Part shown: piece by piece, positions 7,312 through 46,723 of the stretch
How positions within the stretch are numbered: position 1 is the stretch's first letter
Layout: each line of letters opens with the position of its first letter
Virus record (IMG/VR): IMGVR_UViG_2934384730_000002
Coordinates: 1-64,000 of that record
Source: a virus
Taxonomy: Duplodnaviria; Caudoviricetes
Length of the DNA stretch: 64,000 nt
Strand: one strand, 5' to 3'
Notes under the pieces: generated by a model
The model's input: only the letters and a program-made list of their open reading frames with translations
The model's database searches: none
What the model was told of the DNA's origin: nothing
Position numbers and translations under genes: made by a program

Positions 7312-7830
7312 TCATGCCGCGGACTGGTGGATGACGAGCTTGAACTCCGCCAGGACCACCGCCGTCGGGTTGGGGGCGTCGTGAGCGACGCGGAGCGCGA
7401 GCGGGGTGTCCGGCCGGACGAAGATGCCGTGCCCGCCCTTGACCCAGCACTGCATGCCGATGGACGGGGGCCGGTGCTCCGTCGCCGTGGTGTCCACGGG
7501 CGTCGGGGAGCCGAGGGACAGCGGGTCACGCACGTACTGGTCCCGCAGCTCGACGTAGTCCCCCGACTCCCACTGCACCATCGCGTGCAGCTCGCCCCAC
7601 CCGCCCATGGCGGGCCAGATCAGGCCGGACCGCTGGTCCGTGTCCCACGAGGTGATCGTGTACCCGTCCGGCTGCTGTACCTGGTGCATCTCCCACCGGT
7701 CGTACGACTCCCGGGTTCCGAAGGGAAACCGCACGATGTGGTAGCCGCCCGAGGGGATGACCTGCGGGGTGTCCCGCTTGAGCGAGCACACAAGAACGCC
7801 GCTGGTGTGCAAGTGGGCATCGGTGGCCAA
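7312..7830 (-). CDS. Minor tail/fibre-associated protein, paralog of 9434..10039
   Basis: GGGAG RBS then TTG; shares YHIVRFP..ESYD..RSGLIWP..LAEFKL. Confidence 0.7.
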   Translation of the reverse strand: MATDAHLHTSGVLVCSLKRDTPQVIPSGGYHIVRFPFGTRESYDRWEMHQVQQPDGYTITSWDTDQRSGLIWPAMGGWGELHAMVQWESGDYVELRDQYVRDPLSLGSPTPVDTTATEHRPPSIGMQCWVKGGHGIFVRPDTPLALRVAHDAPNPTAVVLAEFKLVIHQSAA

Positions 7831-7858
7831 GACAACTCCCGTAAGGGGTAGTTCCTCG

Positions 7859-7893
7859 GCCCGGCCCACAACCAGCGGCGTCCCCAGAGTGTA
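7859..7893 (-). promoter_or_regulatory. Late leader motif copy 1 (7859-7876) with -10 TACACT
   Basis: GCTGGTTGTGGGCCGGGC 11 nt after TACACT. Confidence 0.8.
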
Positions 7894-7899
7894 GGGCCT

Positions 7900-8262
7900 C
7901 TACTGCGGCCCGGCGTCGGACTCGGGTTCGACGTCCGGCCCGGTGTAGCCCGACATGCGGCGCGCGGTGTCCTCCGGCACCCCCGCCGCCCTCAGCGCCA
8001 GGTAGTCCGTGCGCGTCCGCTCCTCGTCGGCGGCGGCCCGCTCCGCCCGCTTCCGCTCCCGCTCGGCCTCCAGCTCCGCCAGGCGCTCGGCGTACTCCTC
8101 TTCCGACACCAGCCGGCCCGGCTTACCGAGGACCGGCTCCTCCCCGTTCGTCACCACGATCCGGCCCGTCGACCCGTCGTCGTAAATAGCCCAGTAGGCC
8201 ACCGGCTCCCCGGCCACCTCGGCCCCGCTCACCGTCACGCCACCCATCTCGTTCTCCTTCAC
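7900..8262 (-). CDS. Tail fibre assembly-like small protein
   Basis: Coupled to fibre gene, coiled coil. Confidence 0.65.
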   Translation of the reverse strand: MKENEMGGVTVSGAEVAGEPVAYWAIYDDGSTGRIVVTNGEEPVLGKPGRLVSEEEYAERLAELEAERERKRAERAAADEERTRTDYLALRAAGVPEDTARRMSGYTGPDVEPESDAGPQ

Positions 8263-9383
8263 TGGCTGATCAGCAGGGCTCGGATGAACACCTGAATCCT
8301 GTTGTAGGTCGCCCCGCCGACGCCCCGGGAGAGGCGGACGGGAAAGTTCACAGTGGCCGTGGCGCCCGGCGCGAGCGCCAACGTGTGCTGGTAGAGCTTC
8401 GTGGTCTGGACGTGCGTGTCCTGAATCGCCGTCGTCCCGGTGTTGCGGAGGTACATCATTTCGTCGGTGTCCTGCGCGTACCCGGCGCCGGCCCCCACCG
8501 GGAGGTCAAAGTCGACGTCGGCCTCGCGCTCGACCAGGACCAGGGCGGGGAGGCACGGGTCCGGGTTGGTGACCTCCAGCGTGAACGGGGTATCCACGTC
8601 GGTCGGCGTGGTACCGGTCGGCACCTCCAGGTCCGGGTAGTCCCGGGTCTCGCTGTACGACACGAACGACACCTGGCCGCGCGGCTCGCCCCTCAGGACC
8701 CCGTCCGCGTCACACGTCACCACGGTCCCGGCATCCTCCGGCGGGCAGGCGTACGGCCACGCCGCCGTCGCCACCGCCAGCGGCGCCCCGGCCGTACCGT
8801 CCCCCGTCAGGCCGCACCCGGTCACGGGCGGCTCCGCGCTCACCACGTACGGGTCCGCGGCGGTCCCGGCCCCGGTCACCGAGACCCCGTCGCCGCCCTC
8901 CACCGACGTCGCGACGCCTTCGCCGCCGGCGGAGTTCACCACGTACGGGTCGGCGGCCGTACCGTCGCCGGTCACCGTGACGTTCGTGCCCGCCTCGACC
9001 ACGGTCCGTTCCGCGCCGATCACCCCGGTGTCCGGGTCGTACGTCGCCCCCGGGCCGGCGGAGAGGCACGGCCGGACGTCGTCGCAGGACACCGGGGCCG
9101 CGGCGACCACGTACGGGTCGGCGGGCGTGCCGTCGCCGGTGACGGTGACCCGGTCCCCGGCCTCGACCACGGTCGGCTCCGCGCCGATCACGCCGGTGGC
9201 CGGGTCGTACGTCGCCCCCGGCCCGGCGGACAGGCAGGGGCGGACGTCATCGCAGGAGACGGGCACCACGCCCGCCTCCACCACGTAGGGGGCGCCCGCC
9301 GAACCGTTGCCCGTGACGGTGACGCCCGGGCCGGCGGTGACGAGACAGGTGCAGCGGGAGCCGCCGCAGCCGAATTGAGCCAT
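8259..9383 (-). CDS. Tail fibre-like protein with internal repeats
   Basis: VTVTGDGTxADPYVV repeats; duplicated block starting VSCDDVRPCLSAGPGATYDP. Confidence 0.75.
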   Translation of the reverse strand: MAQFGCGGSRCTCLVTAGPGVTVTGNGSAGAPYVVEAGVVPVSCDDVRPCLSAGPGATYDPATGVIGAEPTVVEAGDRVTVTGDGTPADPYVVAAAPVSCDDVRPCLSAGPGATYDPDTGVIGAERTVVEAGTNVTVTGDGTAADPYVVNSAGGEGVATSVEGGDGVSVTGAGTAADPYVVSAEPPVTGCGLTGDGTAGAPLAVATAAWPYACPPEDAGTVVTCDADGVLRGEPRGQVSFVSYSETRDYPDLEVPTGTTPTDVDTPFTLEVTNPDPCLPALVLVEREADVDFDLPVGAGAGYAQDTDEMMYLRNTGTTAIQDTHVQTTKLYQHTLALAPGATATVNFPVRLSRGVGGATYNRIQVFIRALLISQ

Positions 9384-9433
9384 GAGATCGCTCCAGGTGA
9401 GGAGGAGCCAGGCGCACGCCCGGCCCGAAGAGG

Positions 9434-10039
9434 TCAGGGGAGGATGGCGAGCTTGAACTCCGCCAGCGTCAGCCGGCGCGCGGTGCTGTCCGTGTGTCCC
9501 ACCCGCAGCGCCAGCGGCATGTCCGGGCTGACGAAGATCTCGTGATGCTTCGTGAAGAACTGCGCCCCGGGGGACGGCGCGCGGTGGTCGGTGGCCGTGG
9601 TGTCCGGCGCGGTGAACGGCGCCCGCACGAACTGGTCCCGCAGCTCCCCGTACCCGCCCGCCTCCCAGTGGATGAGCGCGGTGAGCAGGCCCCACCCGGT
9701 GACGTTCGGCCAGATGAGCCCTGAGCGGTCGTTGGTCGCCCAGTCCACGACCTGGTAGCCGTCAGGCTGTACCGCGTCGTGCATGTCGTACGGGTCGTAC
9801 GACTCGCCGGCGTACGGAAACCGCACGATGTGGTAAGAGCCGTCCGCCGGGATCATCTGCGGCGTGTCGACCTTGAGCGACACGACCTTGGTCACGAACT
9901 CCGGCACCGGCGGGTCGATGAGGTCTTCACGCGACACCACATAGGGGGCGCTGCTGGTGCCGCTGCCCTCCACCACCATCCCGGGCCCTGCCGTGATCAG
10001 GCAGGAGCACCGCTCACCGCCACACCCTGTCCGGGCCAT
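9434..10039 (-). CDS. Minor tail/fibre-associated protein
   Basis: N-terminus like 8259..9383, C-terminus paralogous to 7312..7830; GGAGG RBS. Confidence 0.75.
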   Translation of the reverse strand: MARTGCGGERCSCLITAGPGMVVEGSGTSSAPYVVSREDLIDPPVPEFVTKVVSLKVDTPQMIPADGSYHIVRFPYAGESYDPYDMHDAVQPDGYQVVDWATNDRSGLIWPNVTGWGLLTALIHWEAGGYGELRDQFVRAPFTAPDTTATDHRAPSPGAQFFTKHHEIFVSPDMPLALRVGHTDSTARRLTLAEFKLAILP

Positions 10040-10066
10040 GGGCCACCTCCGCGTTGACGCGTCAAG

Positions 10067-10099
10067 GCCCGGCCCACAACCAGCAGCGCTACCAGTCTA
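10067..10099 (-). promoter_or_regulatory. Late leader motif copy 2 (10067-10084) with -10 TAGACT
   Basis: Exact motif 9 nt after TAGACT. Confidence 0.8.
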
Positions 10100-10112
10100 T
10101 GGCGACGATCGC

Positions 10113-10832
10113 TCACCCGTAGAGCTCGACCATCACCATGCCCTCGCCGCCCTCCATCCCCGTCTCGGGCTGGCCCATGGACAGGGCGCCGCCGGCGCCG
10201 CCGCCGTACCCTCGCGGAGCCGTCCCCGGCCCCGCCGTGCTCCGCCCGAACCCCCCATGGCCGAGGTGCGACTCACCGCCTACTCCAGAGAGTCCCTGCG
10301 TGCCGGACAGGCGCAGCGCGCCGCCACCGGCGCCGCCGCCGGACGCCCAGTCACCGGACCCGGCGTTGGGCGCCGGGATACCGTTCGCGGTCAGGGCAGT
10401 GGTGCCGCTGGTCATGTTGGCCGATCCGCCCTCGCCGCCGGGTGCGACGACGAACCCGCCGAAGGACGACGTACCGCCGGTCCCGCCGGCGCCGGTCGCG
10501 GACCCAGCCGCACCGCCGGCACCCACCACGACGCTCTCCACCGCGCCGAGGTCGGCGGCATCGATGAGCCGTTCCCCGTAGCTGCCCCCTGCAGCACCCG
10601 GCCGCGCCACCAGCTCATTGTTCGCGGCGTTCGCCCCGGCCGAGCCGCCACCGGCACCCTGCACCCGCACCCTGACCCGCGCCAGCCACGGATAGTCGGC
10701 CTTCCGGAACTGGTAGCTGCCGGCGTTCTTGAACTCCAGCACGTCCCGTAGACCCTGCTGCCCGGGGATGAGGTCCAACTCCCCGTCGCCGTTGACCGTG
10801 AAGTAACTCCCGCTTGCGCAGACCGACGCCAC
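10113..10832 (-). CDS. Glycine-rich minor tail/fibre protein
   Basis: VRVQGAGGG..GGTSSFG..YGGGAGGA; AAGGAG RBS. Confidence 0.8.
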   Translation of the reverse strand: MASVCASGSYFTVNGDGELDLIPGQQGLRDVLEFKNAGSYQFRKADYPWLARVRVRVQGAGGGSAGANAANNELVARPGAAGGSYGERLIDAADLGAVESVVVGAGGAAGSATGAGGTGGTSSFGGFVVAPGGEGGSANMTSGTTALTANGIPAPNAGSGDWASGGGAGGGALRLSGTQGLSGVGGESHLGHGGFGRSTAGPGTAPRGYGGGAGGALSMGQPETGMEGGEGMVMVELYG

Positions 10833-10858
10833 AACGCACTCCTTGACCCGTGTTCTCG

Positions 10859-10895
10859 GCCCGGCCCACAACCAGCGGCATCAAGCCCCAGGTTA
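10859..10895 (-). promoter_or_regulatory. Late leader motif copy 3 (10859-10876) with -10 TAACCT
   Basis: Exact motif 13 nt after TAACCT. Confidence 0.8.
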
Positions 10896-11351
10896 GACGG
10901 CCCCGGGGGGTGCCTCGCCGGGCCGGGAGCCGGTGACGTGGACGCTCGTGCCCTCCGGCGCCTCCACCCACCGCGTACCGCGCCCGTGCCGCACCAGCGC
11001 CCACACCCGCAGCACCACCCGGCCAGGCGTAGCCTCCTCGACCGCCACCGTGTACGGGCCCTCGGCCCCGGCGGCGACGGCGGAGACGACCAGCGAACCC
11101 AGGGACGGGTCCGGGCACCACACGGCCCGCCCACCGTCGCCCTCGACGGCCACGACCTCGGCCGCGACGGTCCGCCCCGGCGCCCCGGGCGGCCCCTCCG
11201 GGCCCTCCTCCCCACGCGGCCCCTCCGGGCCCGCCTCGGGCGCGGCCCGACGCCGGTTACTCATCCGCCGCGTGCGCTGGTCCAGATCCCGCAGCACCCC
11301 GGACAGCGGGCTCCCCGTCGACCGCCGCGCCGACGACCCTCGTACCGCCAC
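10893..11351 (-). CDS. Minor tail protein with short collagen-like stretch
   Basis: GPEGPRGEEGPEGPPG; position. Confidence 0.65.
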   Translation of the reverse strand: MAVRGSSARRSTGSPLSGVLRDLDQRTRRMSNRRRAAPEAGPEGPRGEEGPEGPPGAPGRTVAAEVVAVEGDGGRAVWCPDPSLGSLVVSAVAAGAEGPYTVAVEEATPGRVVLRVWALVRHGRGTRWVEAPEGTSVHVTGSRPGEAPPGAV

Positions 11352-11352
11352 C

Positions 11353-12366: not shown

Positions 12367-12390
12367 GGGGCTCCCCTTCTATGTGACGGC

Positions 12391-12423
12391 GCCCGGCCCA
12401 CAACCAGCAGCCGGGCCAGAGTA
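12391..12423 (-). promoter_or_regulatory. Late leader motif copy 4 (12391-12408) with -10 TACTCT
   Basis: Exact motif 9 nt after TACTCT. Confidence 0.8.
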
Positions 12424-12430
12424 GCGGGGG

Positions 12431-13873: not shown

Positions 13874-13875
13874 GG

Positions 13876-16800: not shown

Positions 16801-17205
16801 GATCTCCGCCTCTACCCCGCGCAGCCGGTCCCGGAGCGACCGCAGGAACCCGCCCGTGTCCGGCGCGACCGGCGTCTCCACCGTGCCACTACCGCCACGG
16901 CGTAGCTCCCGCTGGAAGTCGTCCATATCGGCCGACACCCGCACGTCGACCGCGCGCAGGCCCCGCACCCGGTCCCGGATCTCCCGCTCGAAGCCACGGA
17001 GGTCGGGCTCGATGTCGACGGACGCGGAGAGCCCGCGCAGACCGCGGGCGAGGTTGCGGCGGAGGTTGCGGCCGATGTTCCGGGTGGAGCGGGTGAGGGC
17101 CCGCTCGATGTCCGCCCCGACGCTTCGGGCTTCCCGCTCCGCGCCGCTGTCGTCCAGCTCCAGCGTGATCCTGGCTGAGCCGTAGTCGACCTCTTCGCCG
17201 GCCAT
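13876..17205 (-). CDS. Tape measure protein
   Basis: About 1109 aa, GARDSDVIADSLKEF core, periodic W/F repeats, FADGGIV..GEAGPEVVIPL. Confidence 0.93.
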   Translation of the reverse strand: MAGEEVDYGSARITLELDDSGAEREARSVGADIERALTRSTRNIGRNLRRNLARGLRGLSASVDIEPDLRGFEREIRDRVRGLRAVDVRVSADMDDFQRELRRGGSGTVETPVAPDTGGFLRSLRDRLRGVEAEIQVRADARALVREIEAALRSVAPPTIPVEVEADLSRVRSQLASLDAPRVEVQLTLDDGGVRQQIADLAGTEVNVPVTVGAGGAAAAAGGAAGSAVLGGLTGALTAAGPWGAIVAAVAGFGAVIGKALMTGIEGVIEHQQIEGQLRAALGVSDGVAAQAGRVVGQLYARGVVETIEEGTAAVQAAVRNGLAAPGDIPALEAVSTQVADLSRLMEEDIGKTARAVGTMVKAGLVDSAAEGIDLLTKSVQQGGNVAEDLLDTYTEYPVQFKQLGLSAQESLGLIQQGLKAGARDSDVIADSLKEFSIEAAQGGERVVDAFKAMSLDADKLSSAFAKGGPEARAALTEIFNALQDIEDPLERNQAAVGLFGTKAEDMASALSALDLDTAAKELDGFGGAADRAGDALRDNLGAKLGTIGRELKQAFQGLFTGDFSQFADVGRAIEDALPDLKATGVKIATSIQDGIVEYGPKVFAAVFRLASEIGQRVDIWGPLILKIIAGAAALPLVIGGLLLTAVAGALTGIGAKLLPYLETAWDAVAGFFTDTIPRWGAELGGAILDALASAWEAATGAASSGVDAVVAFFAGLPGRALEALSGLGSAVGGFFSGLFVSAREAVASGASAVLDFFVQLPGQIVAGLAALPGLLLDAFTSAVAYVAIGLLTAVAGLVYIFTELPLKIWAALSSLGSTLVSAFQTGWASVTGWLASAGATVVAWFAALPGRIWAALGSLGTYLLSALSAAFASASARISSWISQAASWFSALPGRVYSALSAFGSMLLSALASGFTAARARVTSWLSDTVGFFRTLPGRAADALSSLGSRIAGVFSRAAGAARRAVSGLIGGIVDLFRGLPGKIISAVGNIGSQIMGKIKSGLPSGVRKLLPFADGGIVTSATPALIGEAGPEVVIPLTRPRRAQQLAQQSGLVDMLTRAGVLGADAGAPGTGGPKAVHHHTWNINEVGDAHMTAHRVIHRLTSAAVV

Positions 17206-17233
17206 GGGCAACCTCACGGAACTCGTGATGGTC

Positions 17234-17288
17234 GCCCGGCCCAGAACCAGCGGCGTGACCGGCACGACGGCCGGTCACGCCCAGGTTA
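17234..17288 (-). promoter_or_regulatory. Late leader motif copy 5 (17234-17251) with -10 TAACCT and interposed hairpin
   Basis: GCTGGTTCTGGGCCGGGC; 31-nt gap is almost all hairpin. Confidence 0.8.
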
Positions 17289-17301
17289 TCCGGTGGACGG
17301 G

Positions 17302-17712: not shown

Positions 17713-18143
17713 TAGAGCTCCACGGTCCACTCCAGGAGCTCGACCAGGACGCGGTCCGGTAGGCGTAGCGCCCACACCGGCCGGGCGCCGCCTCCCTTGA
17801 CCCTCTCCGCGTGCGCCTTCGCTTCGTCCCACGACGGGAAGGAGTTCACGGTCTTCCCGCCGCGTACGACGTCCACGCGCGTGATGAGCTCCGCCGACTC
17901 CGGCAGCATGAGGCGCGACAGGAACACCCGGAGCCCGCTGCTCGCCGCCTTGACCTTCTCCACGTCGGCGCCCTCCAGGTCATCGACGTCCACACCGGTC
18001 TCCGCCTTCTGCATGTCGCGCATCTCGGCGTAGGCGTCCAGGTACTCGTCCCCCATCACCTCGGCCAGGAACTGGAGCTCCAGGCCGAGCGACGGCAGTT
18101 CAGCTACGTGCGGCTCGGTGGCGAGCGCGAAACTCTTCCTCAC
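17580..18143 (-). CDS. Tail assembly chaperone (G)
   Basis: Position; Ser/Gly-rich tail after GGRRPPT. Confidence 0.75.
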   Translation of the reverse strand: MRKSFALATEPHVAELPSLGLELQFLAEVMGDEYLDAYAEMRDMQKAETGVDVDDLEGADVEKVKAASSGLRVFLSRLMLPESAELITRVDVVRGGKTVNSFPSWDEAKAHAERVKGGGARPVWALRLPDRVLVELLEWTVELYTGGRRPPTSSGGSSTASRKGGTRGTGTSRSKGSTRTAGRSAAS

Positions 18144-18171
18144 GGGTCTGCCCCTCGTGCGGCCGCTCCTC

Positions 18172-18212
18172 GCCCGGCCCACAACCAGCAGCGCGGCGGC
18201 CCCAGCAGGGTA
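18172..18212 (-). promoter_or_regulatory. Late leader motif copy 6 (18172-18189) with -10 TACCCT
   Basis: Exact motif 17 nt after TACCCT. Confidence 0.8.
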
Positions 18213-20888: not shown

Positions 20889-20890
20889 GG

Positions 20891-21592
20891 TCAGGACGCC
20901 ACGCAGAAGTCGCCGGCGACCGGGATGTAGGTGTTGGAGGTCTCCGGCGGGGCGACCGAGGTGATGAACATCCGCCGGTGGCAGGTGGAGCCGAGCGGGG
21001 CGAGCATCGGGCCGGGCGTGCCGCCGGCGTCGATGGCCTGGACGTCGTACGGACCGGTGCCCCACTTGCCGCCCGCGCGGGTCGCGCCGGTCAGCTCCAG
21101 GTTCACGGCCTCGTTGGCGAGCTCGACGTCCCCGAGGATGCCGTTGGTGACCCACGGGAGGAGGAAGTACACCCACGCGCCCTCGGCGGCCTCGTCCTCG
21201 CAGACGTCCGCGCCGAGCACGTCCGTCCACACCTCCAGCGCGAAACCGGAGTTGCAGGGGATCGAGCACGAGTCGAAGCCGATCGGGCGGCCGTCGTAGT
21301 CGAAGTAGACCGGGCTGCCGGTCATGATCTCGATGAGCTCCGGCGACGCCTCGAAGAACCCGAACGTCAAGTCGTAGCCGTTGAGGGTGGGGCAGCCGCG
21401 CTTGAACCCGCACTGGCGGCCGTTGGCGGCGGTGAACGTGATGTCCTCCCCCTCCTCGATGTTCGCCGCCATCGAGACGGAGGCGAAACAGTCGGTGACG
21501 AACGACGAGTCCTCACCGCAGACGGGGCGACCACAGCCGTCCACGCGCGTGACGCGCACCGTGGCGGCATTGGAAATGAGGGGTGCTGGCAC
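20891..21592 (-). CDS. Major tail protein
   Basis: VRVTRVDGCGRP..FALEVW..YFLLPW..WGTGPYDV; GGAGG RBS. Confidence 0.85.
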   Translation of the reverse strand: MPAPLISNAATVRVTRVDGCGRPVCGEDSSFVTDCFASVSMAANIEEGEDITFTAANGRQCGFKRGCPTLNGYDLTFGFFEASPELIEIMTGSPVYFDYDGRPIGFDSCSIPCNSGFALEVWTDVLGADVCEDEAAEGAWVYFLLPWVTNGILGDVELANEAVNLELTGATRAGGKWGTGPYDVQAIDAGGTPGPMLAPLGSTCHRRMFITSVAPPETSNTYIPVAGDFCVAS

Positions 21593-21621
21593 TGGGGCCC
21601 TCCAACAAACGAGGAGTTGGA

Positions 21622-21690
21622 GCTCGGCCCACAACCAGCAGCGAGGCGGAGCCCGGCCCAGAACCAGCGGCTACCACTACCAGGAGTCTA
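21622..21690 (-). promoter_or_regulatory. Late leader motif copies 7 (21622-21639) and 8 (21651-21668) with -10 TAGACT
   Basis: Tandem copies upstream of major tail gene. Confidence 0.8.
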
Positions 21691-21738
21691 GCCGGGCTCA
21701 CCCGGCCCCAAGCGGGTCAGCACCCGCCCTGGGGCCGG

Positions 21739-21900: not shown

Positions 21901-21913
21901 CCCTCGCTTCCGG

Positions 21914-22381: not shown

Positions 22382-22432
22382 CAGCAATTCTCCCTCGGGT
22401 CGGTTGAGCAGGACGACCAGGCGGCCGGGGCG

Positions 22433-23101
22433 CTAGTCGCTGATCTTCTTGAACGCGAGGCGGGTGTTGCCGGCCTGGAGACCGGTCGTCGCGACGGGCG
22501 TGCCGTTGGCTCCGACGAGAGCGACCTCCAGGCGGATCACCGTGAGCCCCGGCACCGTCAGGAACCGGTGGAACGTCGACAGGTCGGCGTCGGACTTGGA
22601 GGTCGACGGGTTGTTGTCCTTGTTGTGCTGCGCCGTGTACTGGGTACGGAAAACCGCACCGCCTACGGTGACGTTGAACAGCCGGCCGAGGATCGCGATG
22701 CCGTAGTTCCCGCTCGACGGGTTGGTCGAGATCACCGTTTGCAGCGTGGCGCTGATCTCGTAGACACCGGCCTCCGGCAGCGCGATCGTCAGGGGAGTCG
22801 CGACCCATTCCCCGCTCGGCGAGGCCGCGAGATCTACGAACGTTTCGAGGTACTGCTCGTCGAACACGGGCGTGAGGCGTGCCCCGACCTGCCACTCCTG
22901 CGGGCAGTCGGTGCCGGCCGGGGCGACGACGTCCACGTTCACAGACCGCCCGGTGCCCACCTCCGTGCCCGGGGCGACGCCTTCCAGGGCCGTGGCAGGG
23001 ACGAGGAGACCGCCCGGCCCCTCGGTCAGGGAGTTGCACGGGTCAGGGTCCACGGTGACCGCAGCGGCGGCCACACCGATTCCGGCGTTTGTTCCACTCA
23101 T
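22433..23101 (-). CDS. Putative virion fibre/decoration protein
   Basis: Coupled gene; beta-rich C-terminus LPEAGVYEISA. Confidence 0.7.
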   Translation of the reverse strand: MSGTNAGIGVAAAAVTVDPDPCNSLTEGPGGLLVPATALEGVAPGTEVGTGRSVNVDVVAPAGTDCPQEWQVGARLTPVFDEQYLETFVDLAASPSGEWVATPLTIALPEAGVYEISATLQTVISTNPSSGNYGIAILGRLFNVTVGGAVFRTQYTAQHNKDNNPSTSKSDADLSTFHRFLTVPGLTVIRLEVALVGANGTPVATTGLQAGNTRLAFKKISD

Positions 23102-25668: not shown

Positions 25669-28166
25669 AGCGTTACTCCTTGAGTCCAGGTGATCGTGAC
25701 GGTTCCGCTGGTCGCGGTGATGGCGAGCGGGCCGGTCAGGGCCGCATCGATGTCCCGGGCGACAGACCAGGTAACGGCCTCGCCCGGGTGGAGGGTGCTC
25801 GTCCCGTCCAGGGTGGTGACCGTGCCGCTACCGCCATGGGCGACGGCGGTCACCGACTGGAGGGTGGGGAACACGGACGCATCCCACGGCCCCGCACCGG
25901 GGGCGAGCTCGACGCGGCGGGCCTGGACGCCGATCGCAGGCTCGGCGCCCTCGTCGGTCTCCGCGCAGTCGATCGGGGCGACCGGCGCGTACGGGGCATC
26001 CAGCTCGGCCGTGTAGGTGCCCAGGCTCGTGAGGGTGCCTTCACAGTCGACGGCCAGGAACTCGACGTAATCCGTGTCCGCGATGCCGTCGCCGTCCGCG
26101 TCGTCACAGCGGCAGACCTGGAACACGGTGTTCGCCGGACAGTCCTCGGCAGTCGCGCACAGACCGGCCGTGCCGGTGACTACGTACGGCGTGGTGCCGT
26201 CCAGGGCGGTATCCGCGACAACCGGGGTACCGCCTCCGGCCGGGAATGTGAGGCGGCGGAGGAACGGCGTGACGGCTCCGCCTGTGGTGACGTCGCATAG
26301 GGAGATGACCTCGGTGTCCGGCTCCACCGGCTCCGCGTCCTCGGCGGAGGGCTGGCAGACGCCGACGAGCCCGGTGGGCGTGTACGGCGTCTCTCCGTCC
26401 AGGAGGGTGTCTGTCGTGGAGACGACGACCCCGGTGCAGTCCCGGCACACGGTGCGCAGGAACGGGCCGCCTACGGAGACGTCCAGCGCACCGAACTCCC
26501 AGTTGCCGTAGCGCCGGCACTCCACGCTGAGCACCCGGGGGCCGAGGTACTTGAGCGTGAAGGTGGACACCCCGGTCACACGGAACCGGGCGGAGGCCGC
26601 GCGGGTGGGGGCGTTGAGGGTGCAGCCAGCACCGGTGAGGGAGGGGCCCCCGGTCAGGACGCTGGTGGTCTGGCTGTAACTGTACCCGGGCGGCAGGCTG
26701 AGCGGCACAGCGCCCGGCGGGAGCTGAACCGTGTTCTCTCCTGGCGCGGTGCCGGTCGAGTAGGTCAGGGCAACACTGAAATCGACGTTCACCGGCTGGT
26801 CGAACGTCCAGCGGGTGGTGGGCACGTTTGGGTTGGGGAAGAGTGCGACGCCCCACCAGGAAGCGCCGTCGCTCTGCCGGCCCGGGACAAACGGGTTCGG
26901 GGCGGTGACGGCGTACGTGACGCCGTTGGAGAGCGTCCCGGTGGAGGTGGCCCCGGCAATGGTCGCCGGGGGGAGGCCGTTGGTGTCGCAGAGGACGGCC
27001 GCCTCACAGCTCTGGCACGGAGCGGCGGCGCAGCGCCCCACGGTGCCGGTCGGCCCGTAGGGGGCGCCGTCCAGGAGGTAGTCCGTGTGCCCGGTGATCG
27101 CGCCGTTCTCGTCGCGCCGGTAGTCCCGGACGAACGGCGTGCTCGTGCCGTCAGGGGCGACGTCGCAGAGCTGGAGGAGGTCCTGCTCCGGCTGGGCGAC
27201 CCCGGCCGGGCACGTCGTCACCTCACCCTGCGGGACGTAGGTCGTGCCGGTAGTGGCGTCGACCAGACGGACGGCGGTGACCGCGCCCTCCGCGCCGTAG
27301 GTGTACTCGATCAAAACCAGGCCGAGGACGTCACCGGTGACCGTGTCGACGTCACAGAACGTCCCGGTGGTCGAGATCGACCGGGGGTTGCCGCATGCCA
27401 TCGTGCCGACGGGCGGCTCCCCGGAACTGTAGGCGCCCGAGGTGAGGTTCAGCCACCCGTCCTGAGCGACGGCGCCGGAGCAGTCCCGGGTGACGAGGAC
27501 AGCGATCGGGGTTCCGTCAGCGAGACACAGGCCGAGCGTCGCGGCCGGCGTCGTCTGCGCCTCACACCCGCCGGCCGCCGAGCACACGCCGACGGTGCCG
27601 GTGATGACGTACGGGGTGATGCCGTCGAGGGCGACGTCCTCGAAAGCGGCGGTGTCACCGATCCAGGTGTACCGGCGCAGGAACGGCCCGACCTCGTCGC
27701 ACAGCGTCAGGACCTCGCCGGACGTCTCGGCGTACTCACAGTCCACCGGGGCGACGGGCGCGTACGGGACGGACGGGTCGTCCTGGTAGGTCAGGACGAG
27801 GTCTGCGGTGCCGTCCGCGCGGACGCACCACAGCTCCGAGTACGTGGCGTTCGCCGCGCCGTCGCCGTCCGTGTCGTCACAGAGCTGCCGACAGACGGTG
27901 TCCAGGCACCCGGCGTCGCAGGGGCCGACGTCGGCCGGGAGTACCCCGGGGGTGAACGCCCCTGTGGCCGTGTCGATCCAGCCGACGGCCTCCGGGTCGC
28001 CGGGGGCCTCCCCGCACTCGACGCAGCCGGAGCGGACAACGAGGAGCACCGTGGAGCTGTCCTGACGGCACAGCGGTGCGGCGGCGATCGACGGGGCGCA
28101 GCATGTTGTCACCTCGACGGGTGTTGTGCCGCCGCCGTCGGCGCACGGGATGGGCTCGACCGGCAT
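25665..28166 (-). CDS. Large Cys-rich repeat fibre/decoration protein, paralog of 23098..25668
   Basis: 833 aa, same repeats and shared block. Confidence 0.8.
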   Translation of the reverse strand: MPVEPIPCADGGGTTPVEVTTCCAPSIAAAPLCRQDSSTVLLVVRSGCVECGEAPGDPEAVGWIDTATGAFTPGVLPADVGPCDAGCLDTVCRQLCDDTDGDGAANATYSELWCVRADGTADLVLTYQDDPSVPYAPVAPVDCEYAETSGEVLTLCDEVGPFLRRYTWIGDTAAFEDVALDGITPYVITGTVGVCSAAGGCEAQTTPAATLGLCLADGTPIAVLVTRDCSGAVAQDGWLNLTSGAYSSGEPPVGTMACGNPRSISTTGTFCDVDTVTGDVLGLVLIEYTYGAEGAVTAVRLVDATTGTTYVPQGEVTTCPAGVAQPEQDLLQLCDVAPDGTSTPFVRDYRRDENGAITGHTDYLLDGAPYGPTGTVGRCAAAPCQSCEAAVLCDTNGLPPATIAGATSTGTLSNGVTYAVTAPNPFVPGRQSDGASWWGVALFPNPNVPTTRWTFDQPVNVDFSVALTYSTGTAPGENTVQLPPGAVPLSLPPGYSYSQTTSVLTGGPSLTGAGCTLNAPTRAASARFRVTGVSTFTLKYLGPRVLSVECRRYGNWEFGALDVSVGGPFLRTVCRDCTGVVVSTTDTLLDGETPYTPTGLVGVCQPSAEDAEPVEPDTEVISLCDVTTGGAVTPFLRRLTFPAGGGTPVVADTALDGTTPYVVTGTAGLCATAEDCPANTVFQVCRCDDADGDGIADTDYVEFLAVDCEGTLTSLGTYTAELDAPYAPVAPIDCAETDEGAEPAIGVQARRVELAPGAGPWDASVFPTLQSVTAVAHGGSGTVTTLDGTSTLHPGEAVTWSVARDIDAALTGPLAITATSGTVTITWTQGVTL

Positions 28167-28169
28167 TGC

Positions 28170-28649
28170 TCACGCCTCCGTGTGCTTGTGGCGGCGGTGG
28201 GTGTCCCGGCCGCGCTCGGTGGTGAACTCCCGGTCACACCTGGAGCAGGGGAAGACGCCGTCCACGTGTTCGGCCGGCGGGTCATCAGGGGTCGGCGGGG
28301 GGAGCGGCGTCGAGTCGGGCCCGTACGCCTCCTCCGGGACGTCAGGGAGCGGCTCCCCGGGGATCGCGGTCAGCTCCGGGGAGGAGAACCCCTCCGCGGT
28401 AGCGACGCCGAGGAGCTCCCCGGGGGGCGCCGTTCCCTCCGCGGCATCTTCCTCCGGGGAGACGTAGCGGCGGCCGTCGACCAGGGCCCCGATGAGGACG
28501 TCCTCCGGGGCCTGGACGAACAGCTCCGCCGGGACGGCGAACGTGTTGATACCGACGGTGCGCAACTTCGGCGTCTGGGCGGTCGCCCACCGGGCGAACG
28601 CGGTCCGCCGGCCCCGGGTGGGCTGGATGTGGATCATCTCGCTACTCAC
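28170..28649 (-). CDS. Head-module protein with C-terminal C2H2 finger
   Basis: CSRC..THRRHKH; GGAGG RBS. Confidence 0.7.
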   Translation of the reverse strand: MSSEMIHIQPTRGRRTAFARWATAQTPKLRTVGINTFAVPAELFVQAPEDVLIGALVDGRRYVSPEEDAAEGTAPPGELLGVATAEGFSSPELTAIPGEPLPDVPEEAYGPDSTPLPPPTPDDPPAEHVDGVFPCSRCDREFTTERGRDTHRRHKHTEA

Positions 28650-28695
28650 TGGGCAAGACCTCCGTAACGGCTCTGACCAGGCATTTCTCCGATAG

Positions 28696-28887
28696 AATGA
28701 GGGCGCAAGGCACCCCGGCTCCGGTAGTGCTCGCGCGCTCGCCGAGGAGTTCGGCGTGACGCCGGGCTACGTGTCGATGCTCGCTACGGAAGAACGGTGG
28801 GCGTGGCTGGACGCCGAGGACGCAACTCATGTCGAACACACCTCGACGTTCACGGCGCAGATGGTGCACGTCGTGCCGACCACGTAG
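28696..28887 (+). pseudogene. Remnant of HNH endonuclease C-terminal HTH
   Basis: GARHPGS..ARALAEEFGVTPGYVSMLATEERWAWL, no start, antisense to operon. Confidence 0.5.
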
Positions 28888-29669
28888 GACCGCTCCAGGA
28901 GGACCCGGCGGTCGTTGGTGCGGATGTTCACCGACGCGGAGCGGTCGGGGATGGTGTCGAGGGGGCCGCGCCGGATGTGGACCGGGCCGGTGATGTAGAG
29001 CCACGTCGTGCCGGGCTCGGCGGGCAGCCCGCCCGGGCCCACGTTGAGCGCGGAGTAGCCGGCGCCGATCACCGCGCAGTTCCCGGCGAGGGTCTGAAGG
29101 GACCCAGTTTCGGAATCCTCGCGCAGGATGTTGCAGCAGCCGAGGAGCGCCGCGACGCCGGCAGGGACGTGCAGGACGCCTACGCCGCCGTAGGACTCCG
29201 CGAGGCAGCCCTCCAGCGCGGCGACGCCCTGAGCGACCGACACGGGCCCTTCGGCCGGGGTGAGGTCGACGGCGTCCCTGGAGAGGTGGGAGGCCATGAA
29301 CGCGGCCTCCAGGCCGTGCTGCTCGCCGAGGTCCATCGTGGCCCGGGCGTGCTCCACGGCCTCGTCGTACGACCAGCCGAGGGCGCCGCACTCGGCGCCG
29401 GCGTACAGGGTGATCGGGTCCGCGCCCTCGATCTCGGGCCGGTCGAAGATCTTCACGGCGGGTTCCCCGGGCGACTCGCCGGGGGACTCGTCGGTGAGGC
29501 AGGGGTCCACCCAGTGGCGGACCGGGGAGCAGCCGAGGCCCAGCCACTCCACGCCCATCAGCTCGTGGACGTCGGTGACGTCCACGACGGTGGTACAGGC
29601 GTTGAGGATGCCGTGCGGCAGCGGCGTCCCGGTGATGGGCTCGACGGCCTTACGCATGCCTGACGGCAT
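28827..29669 (-). CDS. Second capsid protein (pentamer-type)
   Basis: Follows MCP; LEGCLAESYGGVGVLH..WLYITGPV..ERSYVV; cluster B-like arrangement. Confidence 0.7.
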   Translation of the reverse strand: MPSGMRKAVEPITGTPLPHGILNACTTVVDVTDVHELMGVEWLGLGCSPVRHWVDPCLTDESPGESPGEPAVKIFDRPEIEGADPITLYAGAECGALGWSYDEAVEHARATMDLGEQHGLEAAFMASHLSRDAVDLTPAEGPVSVAQGVAALEGCLAESYGGVGVLHVPAGVAALLGCCNILREDSETGSLQTLAGNCAVIGAGYSALNVGPGGLPAEPGTTWLYITGPVHIRRGPLDTIPDRSASVNIRTNDRRVLLERSYVVGTTCTICAVNVEVCST

Positions 29670-29695
29670 CGTGCACCTCCGGTGCGTTCAGGGGA

Positions 29696-29730
29696 CGCCG
29701 GGCCCTCGGCTCACGCTCAAGGGCCCGGCG
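29696..29730 (-). terminator. Stem-loop after major capsid gene
   Basis: CGCCGGGCCCT/AGGGCCCGGCG. Confidence 0.5.
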
Positions 29731-29753
29731 CGTCCGGGTCGGGGAGGTACGGG

Positions 29754-31433
29754 TCAGCAGGCGAGGAGCGTCTGCGCGCCGGTCTCACCGGAGGGGCAGA
29801 CCGGGACGGTGACGAGGCGGGTGTCCACCGACCGGTTGACCAGCGCGGCGCACTCCTCCGCGAAGAGCGCGGTGTAGTCGTTCACGCGGAACTTCGTGCT
29901 GTCGTGGATGACGCCGAGGTTGACCTCCTCGCCACGGCCGATGACGAGGCCGCCGGCGGGGTAGATCAGGAACTTGACCTCGCCGGGGAACGCCACGGCC
30001 GGGTCGGGGCCGCCGATCTCGTCGGGAACGGCCGGGTTCAGGCCCCGCGCGAACTGCACGCGGACACCGAGCTTGCCGAACGTGTCCTGAATGCAGTTGG
30101 GGTCGAGGTCGCAGATGTTGACGCCGTTCTGCCGCGCGAGGTCGGCGAGGAACAGCTGCCGCGACCAGTACGGGAACACCACCTCAAGGGCGGTGCTCTC
30201 GCAGAGGCTGTGCCGCTCGATCATGTCGGCCGCCTGGAGACCCACCGCCGCGAACACGCTGGAGAGCGCGCCGAACGACGCCGCGATGTCCACGGGTGTG
30301 GCCGTGTTGAGCGCCTGCTGGAAGAGCTGCTGCTTGATACGGATCTCGTGCGCGACCATTGAGTTGCGCAGGTACCAGGAGACGAGCTCCGGGAAGTGCC
30401 GCTGGGTGAGGATGCCGGCCTCCAGGCACACGCCGATGGCGTCACAGCGCACCTCGACCGGCTCCGGGCAGGGAATGCGGAAGCAGGGCTTCTCAGCACC
30501 GCTGATGTCGTCGGCCTCGGTGTGCACCCACGTCATGGCGGCGACGTCGAGGGAGAGCGGCATGTAGTAGCGCAGGCCGCCCCGGGCGAGCTGGATCTCC
30601 GGCGCGTCCCACAGGAGGTCGGGGCACGCCGTGTCGGTCAGCTCGTAGACGGTCTCCGACGGGGCGCACCAGCCGCCCGACGCGACGAGCTCACGCTCCG
30701 GCAGGCGGCTCTGGCTGGAGGCGGTCAGGGCGACGCTGGTGCCCTCCGGCGCCGACGAGGAGTCGGTGACGATGAGTTCCTGCGGGTACGGGTGCCGGTA
30801 CGAGATGACCTGACCGACGCCGCCGCCCGCCGTCTTGAGGGCGTTGGCGCGGCTGATGATGCCGGCCGTGATGTCGCCGAAGTCGAGGGCCGCGCCGGGG
30901 GTGTAGCCGGGGACGTCGACCGCCGCGGTGATGGTGGTTCCCGGGGCCGGGGCCTCGGGCAGGACGCGGGGCTGGACCCGGCGCACGGCGCTGAGGTTGA
31001 GGGCGGGCCGGGCGACGGCGGACGCGGTGGCGGTCGCGGGCGCGGCCGGAGCGGGCGCGGCCGGAGCGGGGGCGGGCTGCTCCGGGGCCGGGTCGGCGGC
31101 TGCGGTGGTCTCCTCCGCCGCGGGCGGCTCCTCCACGGCGGGCGCGGTCTGCGCCTCGTCGCCGCGGATCTGCGCGGCGAGCTGGTCGATCTCGCTCACG
31201 GCGGCCTCGGCGGCCTCGCGGCGGGACCGCTGCTCCGAGCGGATCGCCTCGGTGCCGGCGGCGAGCGCCCGCATCTGGGCGAGGGAGTCCTCCGTGATCT
31301 CGTCCCGAGCGGACAGCGCGGCGAAGGTCTGCGCGGTGGTCTCCGTCGCCGCGCTCAGGTCCTCGTCCGTGAGGGAGGAGAGGTAGGCGCCGTCGGAGAG
31401 CTGGTTGAGGTCCTGCGGGAGCTCGAAGGCCAT
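29754..31433 (-). CDS. Major capsid (hexamer-type) protein with scaffold-like N-terminus
   Basis: ASGGWCAPSETVY, LTQRHFPEL, HDSTKFRVNDYTALFAEE. Confidence 0.88.
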   Translation of the reverse strand: MAFELPQDLNQLSDGAYLSSLTDEDLSAATETTAQTFAALSARDEITEDSLAQMRALAAGTEAIRSEQRSRREAAEAAVSEIDQLAAQIRGDEAQTAPAVEEPPAAEETTAAADPAPEQPAPAPAAPAPAAPATATASAVARPALNLSAVRRVQPRVLPEAPAPGTTITAAVDVPGYTPGAALDFGDITAGIISRANALKTAGGGVGQVISYRHPYPQELIVTDSSSAPEGTSVALTASSQSRLPERELVASGGWCAPSETVYELTDTACPDLLWDAPEIQLARGGLRYYMPLSLDVAAMTWVHTEADDISGAEKPCFRIPCPEPVEVRCDAIGVCLEAGILTQRHFPELVSWYLRNSMVAHEIRIKQQLFQQALNTATPVDIAASFGALSSVFAAVGLQAADMIERHSLCESTALEVVFPYWSRQLFLADLARQNGVNICDLDPNCIQDTFGKLGVRVQFARGLNPAVPDEIGGPDPAVAFPGEVKFLIYPAGGLVIGRGEEVNLGVIHDSTKFRVNDYTALFAEECAALVNRSVDTRLVTVPVCPSGETGAQTLLAC

Positions 31434-31462
31434 GGGTCGGGTCTCCAGGTTTGATCCTGATG

Positions 31463-31500
31463 ACCCGGCCCATAACCAGCGGTACTAGTGGAACAGCATA
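31463..31500 (-). promoter_or_regulatory. Late leader motif copy 9 (31463-31480) with -10 TATGCT
   Basis: GCTGGTTATGGGCCGGGT 14 nt after TATGCT. Confidence 0.8.
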
Positions 31501-46722: not shown

Positions 46723-46723
46723 G

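What the first reader, a model, noticed from the sequence alone, without database searches (positions are those of the whole stretch)
7821..31500. Shared cis-repressed leader switch in eight virion-gene leaders: a near-invariant 18-mer hides each RBS/start codon
Seen: sense motif GCTGGTT(G/C/A)TGGGCCG(G/A)G(C/T) occurs 9 times (7859, 10067, 10859, 12391, 17234, 18172, 21622, 21651, 31463). All copies are intergenic, co-oriented and just upstream of late genes (capsid, major tail, chaperone, tape measure, hub, fibres). By hand-pairing, the motif or its 3' end is the 5' arm of a hairpin whose 3' arm is that gene's own RBS/start. Capsid: GGUUAUGGG/CCCAUGGCC + CGGGUC/GACCCG + UCAGG/CCUGG. Tape measure: GGGCGACC/GGUUGCCC + UCACG/CGUGA. 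Major tail: UGCUGGU/GCCAGCA + GGGCC/GGCCC + CUCCAAC/GUUGGAG. Gene 10039: UGUGGGCC/GGCCCAUG + CCUU/GAGG. Gene 7830: GGCCGAGG/UCUUGGCC. Pairing is weaker for copies 4 and 6. Inference: the 3' arms differ while the 5' arm is conserved, so one trans factor likely recognises the 5' arm and unmasks all late mRNAs together, like a natural toehold-switch regulon. I do not recognise this as a described phage late-control mechanism.
Basis: partly seen in the sequence, partly recalled or inferred. Interest (0 to 1): 0.92.

Follow-up and report, generated by a model that had tools for sequence, protein, structure and literature searches.

The report
Late-gene leader RNA hairpin, Streptomyces phage
Eight virion-gene units of this Streptomyces prophage each begin with a minimal promoter, the same small 21-base RNA hairpin and then a second hairpin that covers the ribosome-binding site, an apparently undescribed control tag shared by many related actinomycete phages whose reader is still unknown.

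Summary
The motif is real. There are 9 exact copies, all on the minus strand, against 0 expected, and no others in the 87.9-kb provirus.

It is not a free 5' arm. With 3 more bases upstream it forms a 21-nt bulged RNA hairpin, HP1. The support is RNA-type covariation: -3/+17 is G-C, A-U, U-A or C-G; -1/+15 is C-G, U-G or U-A and almost never C-A.

HP1 sits 6-14 nt after a -10-only TAnnCT box in 7 of 8 units, so it should head the mRNA. It ends 24-29 nt before each start codon.

A second, variable hairpin (HP2) covers the Shine-Dalgarno more than chance allows: z = -1.5 against about 0 in controls.

Pairing of the motif with its own start region is no better than with control starts. Forcing HP1 closed barely frees the SD.

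The same unit occurs in phage TurkishDelight, with variants in lytic cluster BG and in Gordonia phages. It is therefore not a lysogeny operator.

No Rfam family, paper or Com-like protein was found. No regulator was shared in a comparison with TurkishDelight, TP1604 and Mischief19.

This scan found the same element earlier on four other genomes. The function is inferred: a shared recognition tag on late mRNAs.

The parts
31431..31500 (-). Unit head for the major capsid gene: -10-like TATGCT (31495-31500), HP1, HP2 with the SD, ATG (31431-31433)
31463..31483 (-). HP1 copy 9 (ACC GC UGGUU AUG GGCCG GGU). Its outer pair is A-U instead of G-C.
   Evidence: 34.0 bits
29754..31433 (-). Major capsid protein gene
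   Evidence: phrog_777, E 1.6e-165; the best tblastn place is 84.6% identical to TurkishDelight gp17
21590..21690 (-). Unit head for the major tail gene: -10-like TAGACT (21685-21690), two tandem HP1 copies, HP2 (CUCCAAC/GUUGGAG) holding the SD, GTG (21590-21592)
21651..21671 (-). HP1 copy 8 (first of the tandem pair)
   Evidence: 39.5 bits
21622..21642 (-). HP1 copy 7 (second of the tandem pair). A at +15 is matched by U at -1.
   Evidence: 36.0 bits
20891..21592 (-). Major tail protein gene
   Evidence: phrog_792, E 1.1e-95
18141..18212 (-). Unit head for the chaperone-like gene: -10-like TACCCT (18207-18212), HP1, leader, GTG (18141-18143)
18172..18192 (-). HP1 copy 6
   Evidence: 37.5 bits
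17580..18143 (-). Gene of phrog_12617. It matches the TurkishDelight stretch annotated as tail assembly chaperone gp26.
17203..17254 (-). Leader of the tape measure gene: HP1, then HP2 (GGGCGACC/GGUUGCCC around UCACG/CGUGA, -23.1 kcal/mol), ATG (17203-17205). The nearest TAnnnT (17283-17288) lies 28 nt upstream, so this unit may lack its own promoter.
17234..17254 (-). HP1 copy 5
   Evidence: 40.8 bits
13876..17205 (-). Tape measure protein gene
   Evidence: phrog_305, E 9.8e-57; PF10145
12364..12423 (-). Unit head for a minor tail gene: -10-like TACTCT (12418-12423), HP1, HP2, ATG (12364-12366)
12391..12411 (-). HP1 copy 4
   Evidence: 36.3 bits
11353..12366 (-). Minor tail protein gene
   Evidence: phrog_837, E 3.4e-84
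10830..10895 (-). Unit head: -10-like TAACCT (10890-10895, whose TAA is also the stop of the upstream ORF), HP1, weakly structured leader with a free SD, GTG (10830-10832)
10859..10879 (-). HP1 copy 3
   Evidence: 39.0 bits
10113..10832 (-). Late gene that matches the TurkishDelight gp32 stretch
10037..10099 (-). Unit head: -10-like TAGACT (10094-10099), HP1, HP2 (-18.7 kcal/mol) covering the SD, ATG (10037-10039)
10067..10087 (-). HP1 copy 2
   Evidence: 37.6 bits
9434..10039 (-). The orthologous leaders form the largest group (35 leaders listed).
7828..7893 (-). Unit head: -10-like TACACT (7888-7893), HP1, HP2 covering the SD, TTG (7828-7830)
7859..7879 (-). HP1 copy 1
   Evidence: 40.8 bits
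7312..7830 (-). Unnamed late ORF just upstream of the endolysin-like gene (ORF 6318-7619 matches the TP1604 endolysin region)

Best explanation
Each copy is the head of a compact late transcription and translation unit with three parts.

(1) A minimal promoter made only of a -10 box, TAnnCT, with no -35 signal.

(2) HP1, a 21-nt RNA hairpin that starts within a few bases of the predicted transcript 5' end. Its form is GCC-GC-UGGUU-NUG-GGCCG-GGC: a 3-bp outer helix, a 2-nt GC bulge, a 5-bp inner helix rich in G.U, and a 3-nt loop.

(3) HP2, a gene-specific hairpin that starts at or inside the last bases of HP1. Its 3' arm holds the Shine-Dalgarno sequence, and the start codon follows a few bases later.

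Shown: the three parts, their order and spacing, the RNA-type covariation of HP1, the excess structure over the SD, and the spread of the unit over temperate and lytic Streptomyces phages and Gordonia phages.

Inferred: HP1 is a common recognition tag on late mRNAs. It would be read by one unidentified factor, either a host protein or machine or a protein of the virion module. That factor would set the translation and/or stability of the masked late messages together. In layout this resembles the phage Mu Com protein, which binds a small hairpin next to the mom translation-inhibition stem.
For: HP1 structure:
- Among 178 unique instances, -3/+17 is G-C 148, A-U 15, G-U 4, U-A 2, C-G 2 and other 7. 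-1/+15 is C-G 120, U-G 33, U-A 19 and other 6, with C-A only once.
- On 150 of 176 distinct 29-mers, 97.8% of cells pair. There are 27 double-change cells against 7.0 +/- 2.2 in shuffles (0 of 500 reach the observed value), and pairing collapses when the partner is slid.
- RNAalifold finds HP1 unaided in the capsid and major-tail ortholog sets.
- Class variants turn the U5.G11 and U6.G10 wobbles into C-G in Gordonia phages.
- U-G is tolerated and C-A is not. This fits RNA of the sense strand, not a DNA dyad.

Promoter: 139 of 178 instances have TAnnnT starting 15-23 nt before G0, with a peak at -19 to -15 (118 instances). Position 5 is C in 118 of 139. No -35 is conserved.

Spacing: the motif ends 22-34 nt before the start codon in 152 of the 165 leaders with a callable start.

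HP2: mean z = -1.52 and SD pairing 0.71, against -0.01 and 0.48 in 200 controls and -0.34 and 0.55 in 14 promoter-like controls. The stems differ between genes and between orthologs, for example CCAAC/GUUGG versus CUCC/GGAG.

Specificity: of 128 core matches in bacterial genomes, 30 of the 38 with -10 or SD context have all 3 outer pairs, against 6 of the 90 without context.

Orthologous positions in TurkishDelight. Tandem copies recur before major-tail genes.
Against: - No transcript data. No RNA run was listed, so the TSS and the RNA itself are predictions.
- Nearest-neighbour folding does not favour HP1 in the full leader. The predicted probability of the outer helix is 0.11. Enforcing HP1 costs 6.5 kcal/mol on average, and it equals or beats the free fold in only 7% of 152 leaders.
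- Enforcing HP1 hardly opens the SD, 0.28 to 0.34. A Com-like melting step is therefore not predicted by the folds.
- No candidate reader was found. The window phage shares only the virion module, an endolysin, an HNH and a RuvC with TurkishDelight, TP1604 and Mischief19. There is no Com zinc ribbon in 5 phage records.
- Five of the eight base pairs never vary within the Streptomyces class, so the inner helix rests on class comparisons that I picked by hand.
- Many A-U outer pairs come from orthologous capsid leaders, so cell counts overstate the number of independent events.
Confidence: 0.55

Rival explanations
1. 5'-terminal stabiliser only. HP1 is a protective stem-loop at the extreme 5' end of late mRNAs. 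It blocks 5'-end-dependent decay (RNase J, RNase E, RppH-type entry) and needs no specific reader. HP2 is a second protective or insulating fold.
For: HP1 begins 6-14 nt after the -10 box in 7 of 8 window units. That places it about +1 to +8 of the predicted transcript, which is the position known from my own knowledge for 5' stabilisers such as the ompA leader. No phage-encoded reader was found. The units head the most abundant virion proteins.
Against: A stabiliser needs a stable helix, not a fixed sequence. Yet the bulge, the loop U8 G9 and the 3' arm are invariant in 178 instances whose flanks are unrelated. HP1 alone is weak, at -5.3 kcal/mol. The fixed 22-34 nt distance to the start codon and the SD masking are not explained.
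Confidence: 0.18
2. The motif is the conserved 5' arm of a long hairpin that pairs directly with each gene's RBS and start codon. A trans factor binds that arm and releases all late mRNAs, as in a toehold switch.
For: MFE folds of the window leaders do pair the motif with the RBS and start region. Across 152 leaders, positions +13..+17 pair with the RBS side with probability 0.52-0.63. The free fold is 6.5 kcal/mol better than the HP1 state. GGGY pairing downstream is enriched, 0.59 against 0.48.
Against: Motif-to-start duplex energy equals that with 735 control starts and that of the reversed motif. Pair mass between motif and RBS is the same for the true and the reversed motif, 5.08 against 5.07. 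Covariation links the motif's two flanks to each other. The long outer pairings are not kept among orthologous capsid leaders.
Confidence: 0.1
3. Promoter-proximal RNA that acts on RNA polymerase, like HK022 put or lambda nut/boxB. The nascent HP1, with or without a factor, would make the elongation complex resistant to terminators within the late region.
For: HP1 lies directly after the promoters. It spans phages of two host genera, which would fit a conserved host target such as RNA polymerase. No regulator was shared in the comparison with TurkishDelight, TP1604 and Mischief19. Hairpin-rich stretches follow the capsid and major-tail genes in TP1604 (sequence seen).
Against: Eight units in 24 kb leave little need for long-range read-through. 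The tight link to the start codon and the SD masking point to translation. No boxA-like second element is conserved next to HP1. The terminator scan found nothing useful.
Confidence: 0.1
4. DNA operator. The 18-21 bp stretch is an asymmetric repressor site over +1..+21 of each late promoter, like the stoperators of cluster A mycobacteriophages, and keeps late genes silent in the lysogen.
For: The site is asymmetric, co-oriented, intergenic and multi-copy, and it overlaps the predicted start of transcription. The window phage and TurkishDelight are temperate.
Against: The covariation follows RNA rules: U-G 33 against C-A 1. No copy lies in the TurkishDelight immunity region or the rest of its right 45 kb. 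Variants head the same genes in cluster BG phages whose records show no integrase or repressor. The distance to the start codon is tighter than an operator needs.
Confidence: 0.04
5. The variable positions would be those tolerated in a duplex with one partner RNA.
For: The variable positions are Y/Y and R, as that note says.
Against: Those same positions co-vary with each other inside the motif (-3 with +17, -1 with +15). That explains them without a partner RNA. No antisense copy of the motif with up to 3 mismatches lies in the window or in TurkishDelight.
Confidence: 0.03

Closest known systems
Phage Mu Com protein and the mom mRNA translation-inhibition structure (PMC6483171; passages read)
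   Same: A small hairpin lies directly upstream of a second hairpin that holds the translation start signals. In Mu, the protein binds the first hairpin and the second is opened. The order HP1 then HP2 with the SD is the same here.
   Different: Mu has one site for one gene, whereas this phage has 8 units and related phages carry many more copies. No Com-type zinc ribbon was found in 5 phage records. HP1 has no sequence likeness to the Com site motif quoted in that paper. Here the SD rather than the start codon is the main masked element. Folding does not predict that HP1 formation opens HP2.
Start-associated sequences (SAS/ESAS) of cluster K mycobacteriophages (PMC3203893; passages read)
   Same: A short, asymmetric, one-orientation repeat in an actinophage that is tied to gene starts, conserved across subclusters, rare in the host genome, and of unknown reader and function.
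   Different: SAS is 13 bp, contains the SD itself, lies 3-7 bp from the start codon and is confined to the non-structural half of the genome. ESAS repeats showed no RNA-type compensation. Here the element lies 22-34 nt upstream, does not contain the SD, heads virion genes, follows a -10 box and shows RNA covariation.
Lambda nut (boxA/boxB with N) and HK022 put RNAs (from my own knowledge, not read here)
   Same: Small promoter-proximal RNA hairpins in phage transcripts that are read as RNA and control expression of the genes downstream.
   Different: Those occur at one or two sites per genome, act on termination and are not tied to start codons. No boxA-like partner element, N-like protein or terminator dependence was shown here.
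Stoperators of cluster A mycobacteriophages and R4-like Streptomyces phages (named in PMC3203893; details from my own knowledge)
   Same: A multi-copy asymmetric site in short intergenic gaps, in one orientation relative to transcription.
   Different: Stoperators are DNA sites of the immunity repressor spread over the whole genome. This element is RNA-like in its covariation, confined to the virion genes, and also present in lytic phages.

Membership tests
Any Rfam family | Match to a curated covariance model | tested here: not met
   cmscan of window 6000-33000, both strands, E up to 1: 0 matches
   The segment folds on itself with covariation. Its pairing with its own start region equals that of controls.
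   SD pairing probability is 0.71 against 0.48 and 0.55 in controls; z = -1.52. The masking is done by HP2, not by the 18-mer.
   No antisense copy with up to 3 mismatches in the window or in TurkishDelight. Shorter or host-encoded partners were not searched.
Mu Com / mom TIS | A small hairpin immediately upstream of a stem that holds the start signals | tested here: met
   HP1 is followed at once by HP2 with the SD.
Mu Com / mom TIS | A Com-type zinc-ribbon activator encoded by the phage | tested here: not met
   PF10122 gave no match at E up to 1 in G000, TurkishDelight, TP1604, Mischief19 or Bakery.
Mu Com / mom TIS | Binding to the first hairpin opens the second | not testable with these tools
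   Enforcing HP1 in silico raises SD accessibility only from 0.28 to 0.34. A protein effect cannot be computed.
Cluster K SAS/ESAS | A 13-bp repeat that contains AGGAG, lies 3-7 bp from the start codon and sits in the non-structural half of the genome | tested here: not met
   Here the motif lies 22-34 nt upstream, lacks the SD and is confined to virion genes. SAS features were taken from PMC3203893.
Stoperator / repressor operator | A DNA site of the immunity repressor, also present at the early lytic promoter and across the genome | tested here: not met
   No copy outside the virion genes in G000 or in TurkishDelight. Variants occur in BG phages with no annotated repressor or integrase. The covariation is RNA-type.
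Lambda nut / HK022 put antitermination RNAs | Promoter-proximal RNA structure | tested here: met
   HP1 starts 6-14 nt after the -10 box in 7 of 8 units.
Lambda nut / HK022 put antitermination RNAs | Confers read-through of downstream terminators; boxA partner or two conserved stems | not testable with these tools
   No second conserved element lies beside HP1. The terminator scan was uninformative.

The most novel reading that the evidence does not exclude
HP1 is the address tag of a late-gene regulon that spans temperate and lytic phages of Streptomyces and Gordonia. One still unknown protein would recognise the bulged hairpin at the 5' end of every major virion mRNA. This could be a conserved actinobacterial factor such as the ribosome, RNA polymerase or an RNase, or a protein hidden in the virion module. 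It would couple that recognition to opening, protection or timing of the SD-masking hairpin. In effect this would be a many-gene, many-phage counterpart of Mu Com/mom.

The competition of the GGGY end of HP1 between its own outer helix and HP2 would then be the moving part of a two-state switch.
Probability: 0.3. Interest if true: 0.8.

Novelty: new variant of a known kind. Interest (0 to 1): 0.62.

Why it matters
Late-gene control in actinomycete phages is poorly understood. Here a single small RNA structure marks the messages for capsid, tail tube, tape measure and tail-tip proteins, and it does so in phages with very different lifestyles and hosts.

If it is read by one factor, it gives a direct handle on how these phages time or boost virion synthesis. 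It would also be a new RNA-protein (or RNA-machine) recognition pair in Actinobacteria.

It could also serve as a compact, portable expression module for Streptomyces engineering: a -10 box, the hairpin and a masked RBS.

The cultured phage TurkishDelight carries the same nine sites, so the question is testable at the bench.

Tried and rejected
- Repressor operator or stoperator reading. I held this early and dropped it after finding the RNA-type covariation, variants in BG phages and no copies outside the virion genes.
- Motif as the -35 element or as a phage-RNA-polymerase promoter. No conserved -10 lies downstream of it, and no RNA polymerase gene is annotated in TurkishDelight.
- Sigma-70-type promoter and terminator scan of 7000-26900: 0 promoters and 1 terminator-like site inside a gene. 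Uninformative.
- RNA evidence. No RNA holder was listed for window 21600-31590.
- Phage-encoded reader by shared gene content: none found. The RapZ_C-domain ORF at 41558-42019 matched only TP1604 at E below 1e-4, not TurkishDelight or Mischief19. Pfam found nothing in the small reverse-strand genes of BG phages.
- The genes annotated 'Rnase E' before the terminase in BG and Gordonia phages gave no nuclease family in Pfam.
- Host use of the element. In 5 Streptomyces genomes the strong model hits lie clustered: 7 in G004:C5 and 5 in G005:C926. G001 and G002 have one each, and G003 has none above 21 bits. I did not inspect the genes around the two single hits.
- HP2 by alignment. RNAalifold on the capsid and major-tail ortholog sets did not recover HP2, because the stems differ in sequence and length. 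On the tape-measure set it did, with one compensatory pair. HP2 therefore rests mainly on z-scores.
- Mycobacteriophage cluster B, Microbacterium and Saccharomonospora relatives of the capsid gene. Pipefish has a CTGGCTGCGGGCCGG stretch without the outer helix. Puhltonio, RobsFeet and PIS 136 show no clear HP1. I did not pursue these.
- Literature searches found no description of the element.

Full report
OBSERVATION

None of 100 dinucleotide-preserving shuffles had a match. The window is the first 64 kb of an 87,866-bp IMG/VR provirus, and with one mismatch allowed the whole record still holds only these nine. A covariance model built later scores them at 34-41 bits, and the next best hit in the window scores 15 bits.

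The genes downstream are late genes: major capsid (phrog_777), major tail (phrog_792), tape measure and a minor tail protein. By tblastn the others are the counterparts of the TurkishDelight chaperone and tail-tip genes. The 18-mer ends 24-29 nt before each start codon.

RELATIVES

- The closest cultured phage is Streptomyces phage TurkishDelight. The best tblastn place of its capsid gene is 84.6% identical. It has the motif at the nine orthologous places, with tandem pairs before the major tail and tape measure genes, and nowhere in its other 45 kb.
- From these loci, TurkishDelight and the window I collected 178 distinct instances.

WHAT SURROUNDS THE MOTIF

- Conservation extends 3 bases upstream, giving GC(C/T)GCTGGTTNTGGGCCG(G/A)G(C/T). 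Everything else is unconserved except an A/T-rich patch about 10-18 nt upstream and a G-rich SD patch about 16-20 nt downstream.
- The A/T patch is a -10-like hexamer. 152 of 178 instances have TAnnnT within 50 nt upstream. In 118 the nearest one starts 15-19 nt before the first G of the motif, and in 139 it starts at -23 to -15. Position 5 is C in 118 of those 139. No -35 signal appears when the set is anchored on the hexamer.
- In the window, 7 of 8 units have such a box 6-14 nt before the hairpin base. The tape-measure unit has none nearer than 28 nt.
- From what is known of sigma-70-type promoters, transcription would start about 7 nt after the hexamer. The motif would then be the first structured element of the mRNA. 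This is a prediction, since no RNA run was listed for the stretch.
- The motif ends 22-34 nt before the start codon in 152 of the 165 leaders with a callable start. Thirteen had none by my rule.

THE MOTIF IS A HAIRPIN

RNAalifold, run on 22 orthologous capsid leaders, predicted a hairpin inside the motif rather than between the motif and the RBS. It did the same on 17 major-tail leaders.

The pairs are -3:+17, -2:+16 and -1:+15; then a GC bulge; then U2-G14, G3-C13, G4-C12, U5-G11 and U6-G10; then the loop N7 U8 G9.

- Position -3/+17 was free in my search pattern. Over all 178 instances it is G-C 148, A-U 15, G-U 4, U-A 2, C-G 2 and unpaired 7.
- Position -1/+15 is C-G 120, U-G 33, U-A 19 and unpaired 6. 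When +15 is A, -1 is U in 19 of 24 cases, whereas C-A occurs once.
- The counting tool, given 150 of the 176 distinct 29-mers, found 97.8% of cells paired. It found 27 double-change cells against 7.0 +/- 2.2 in shuffles, with 0 of 500 shuffles reaching the observed value. Pairing falls to 56-61% when partners are slid by one column.
- The shuffle count is not a probability, and many A-U cases are inherited together in capsid leaders. However, the U-A pair at -1/+15 occurs in at least four different gene families.

A natural control supports this. Of 128 matches to the core in bacterial genomes, 90 had neither a -10 box nor an SD and start downstream. These came from many phyla and sat in coding-like context, and only 6 had all three outer pairs. 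The other 38 had such context, all seen in Streptomyces records, and 30 had all three.

VARIANTS IN OTHER PHAGE GROUPS

- Lytic-looking cluster BG phages (TP1604, Xkcd426, phiSAJS1, Mischief19) carry GC(T/C)GCTGGCG(T/G)TAGGCCGGG(T/C) before the capsid gene. All but Mischief19 carry it before the major tail gene too. They carry a related form before the tape measure gene. Each follows a TAnnCT or TATCAT box.
- Gordonia phages Bakery and Jambalaya carry GCCGCTGGCCGAGGGCCGGGC before the capsid, major tail and tape measure genes. Lennon carries GCTGGCTAGGGGCCGG.
- In these classes U5 and U6 become C, so the two wobble pairs become C-G.
- On 14 representatives that I chose by hand, 92.9% of cells pair and all three outer pairs show double changes.
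- Presence in phages whose records show no integrase or repressor argues against a lysogeny operator.

THE RBS-MASKING CLAIM

- The duplex energy of the 21-mer with its own start region (-18 to +18) is -19.7 kcal/mol. With 735 starts of other genes from the same loci it is -19.9, and with the reversed motif -19.3.
- The pair mass between motif and RBS is 5.08 for the true motif and 5.07 for the reversed one.

A local structure is real nonetheless.
- The stretch from the last four motif bases to the start codon folds with mean z = -1.52 against dinucleotide shuffles (n = 152; 43% are below -2). The SD is paired with probability 0.71.
- In 200 control leaders the values are -0.01 and 0.48. In the 14 controls that have a TAnnCT box they are -0.34 and 0.55.
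- The stems differ from gene to gene and among orthologs: major tail CCAAC/GUUGG or CUCC/GGAG; capsid GUCUCC/GGAGAC; tape measure GGGCAACC/GGUUGCCC with a GGGCACCC/GGGGUGCCC variant.
- In the window the local folds range from -6.0 kcal/mol (copy 3, SD free) to -23.1 kcal/mol (tape measure).

DO THE TWO HAIRPINS COMPETE?

- The last bases of HP1 (GGGY) pair downstream with probability 0.59 in real leaders and 0.48 when the downstream part is shuffled.
- With U at +17, the MFE partner is a downstream A in 12 of 17 leaders.
- The energy model gives HP1's outer helix only 0.11 probability. It rates the HP1-closed state 6.5 kcal/mol worse on average than the free fold.
- Enforcing HP1 changes SD accessibility from 0.28 to 0.34 and start-codon accessibility from 0.38 to 0.53.
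- So covariation says HP1 forms, while the energy model says it needs help: co-transcriptional folding, or a bound factor. HP1 by itself does not unmask the SD. A two-state switch is possible but not shown.

WHO READS IT?

- ORFs of the provirus shared with TurkishDelight, TP1604 and Mischief19 are the virion module, an endolysin, an HNH and a RuvC. No regulator is shared.
- No Com-type zinc ribbon was found in five phage records.
- In five Streptomyces genomes the strong model hits lie in clusters that look like prophage virion modules. I saw no use by host genes, though two single hits were not examined.

COMPARISON WITH KNOWN SYSTEMS

- Rfam has no match. Six full-text searches found no description. 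Supplements were closed.
- The layout is closest to Mu Com/mom, where Com binds a short hairpin next to the translation-inhibition stem that holds the start codon (PMC6483171, passages read). There is no Com here, and there are many sites instead of one.
- SAS/ESAS of cluster K mycobacteriophages (PMC3203893, passages read) share the idea of a start-linked repeat with an unknown reader. They differ in place, content, gene class and lack of RNA compensation.
- Nut, put and stoperators are discussed under the rival explanations.

EARLIER FINDINGS OF THIS SCAN

After I had reached the hairpin reading, a look-up showed that follow-up agents had reported the same element on four other genomes with the same conclusion. 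One of those notes mentioned Gordonia, which led me. A note on this window proposing a small-RNA partner is answered by the internal covariation.

VERDICT

The function remains inferred.

Noticed in passing
window 41558-42019 (+): A 153-aa ORF with a RapZ C-terminal domain (PF22740, E 8.7e-23) on the opposite strand in the terminase-portal island. By tblastn it matches TP1604 46581-46943, annotated 'ATPase' (37% identity). It does not match TurkishDelight or Mischief19. RapZ's C-terminal domain binds RNA in E. coli (from my own knowledge).
   Followed up: partly
L128 (TP1604), L129, L130, L131: leaders of gp09, gp14, gp20, gp27 and their counterparts: Cluster BG phages have further TAnnCT boxes (TAGACTGG, TAAGCTGG, TAAACTGG) 25-35 nt before late genes without HP1. 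The -10-only promoter class is therefore wider than the hairpin class.
   Followed up: no
L126 (TurkishDelight) 30550-30567 against the annotated CDS start at 30557: The annotated start of gp33 (tailspike) lies inside an HP1 copy. By analogy with the other units, the true start is probably about 25-30 nt downstream of the motif.
   Followed up: no
window 17255-17288: Between the nearest TAnnnT and the tape-measure HP1 lies a 9-bp inverted repeat (GTGACCGGC...GCCGGTCAC). This unit may be fed by the chaperone promoter at 18207-18212 rather than by its own.
   Followed up: no
window 10890-10895: The -10-like TAACCT of unit 3 uses the TAA stop codon of the upstream ORF (10893-11351). This is an example of how tightly the units are packed.
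   Followed up: no
L269 (Mycobacterium phage Pipefish) 1700-1728; L268 (Puhltonio) capsid leader: Cluster B mycobacteriophage capsid leaders share a GGGGAGCGATC block. Pipefish also has CTGGCTGCGGGCCGG, which resembles the inner part of HP1 without the outer helix and may be a distant relative of the element.
   Followed up: partly
L254, L255 (Gordonia phages) gene 18/17; window 31972-36054: A gene annotated 'RNA ligase' sits just upstream of the capsid unit in Gordonia Wizardviruses. Whether an RNA-end enzyme travels with the HP1 module was not tested.
   Followed up: no
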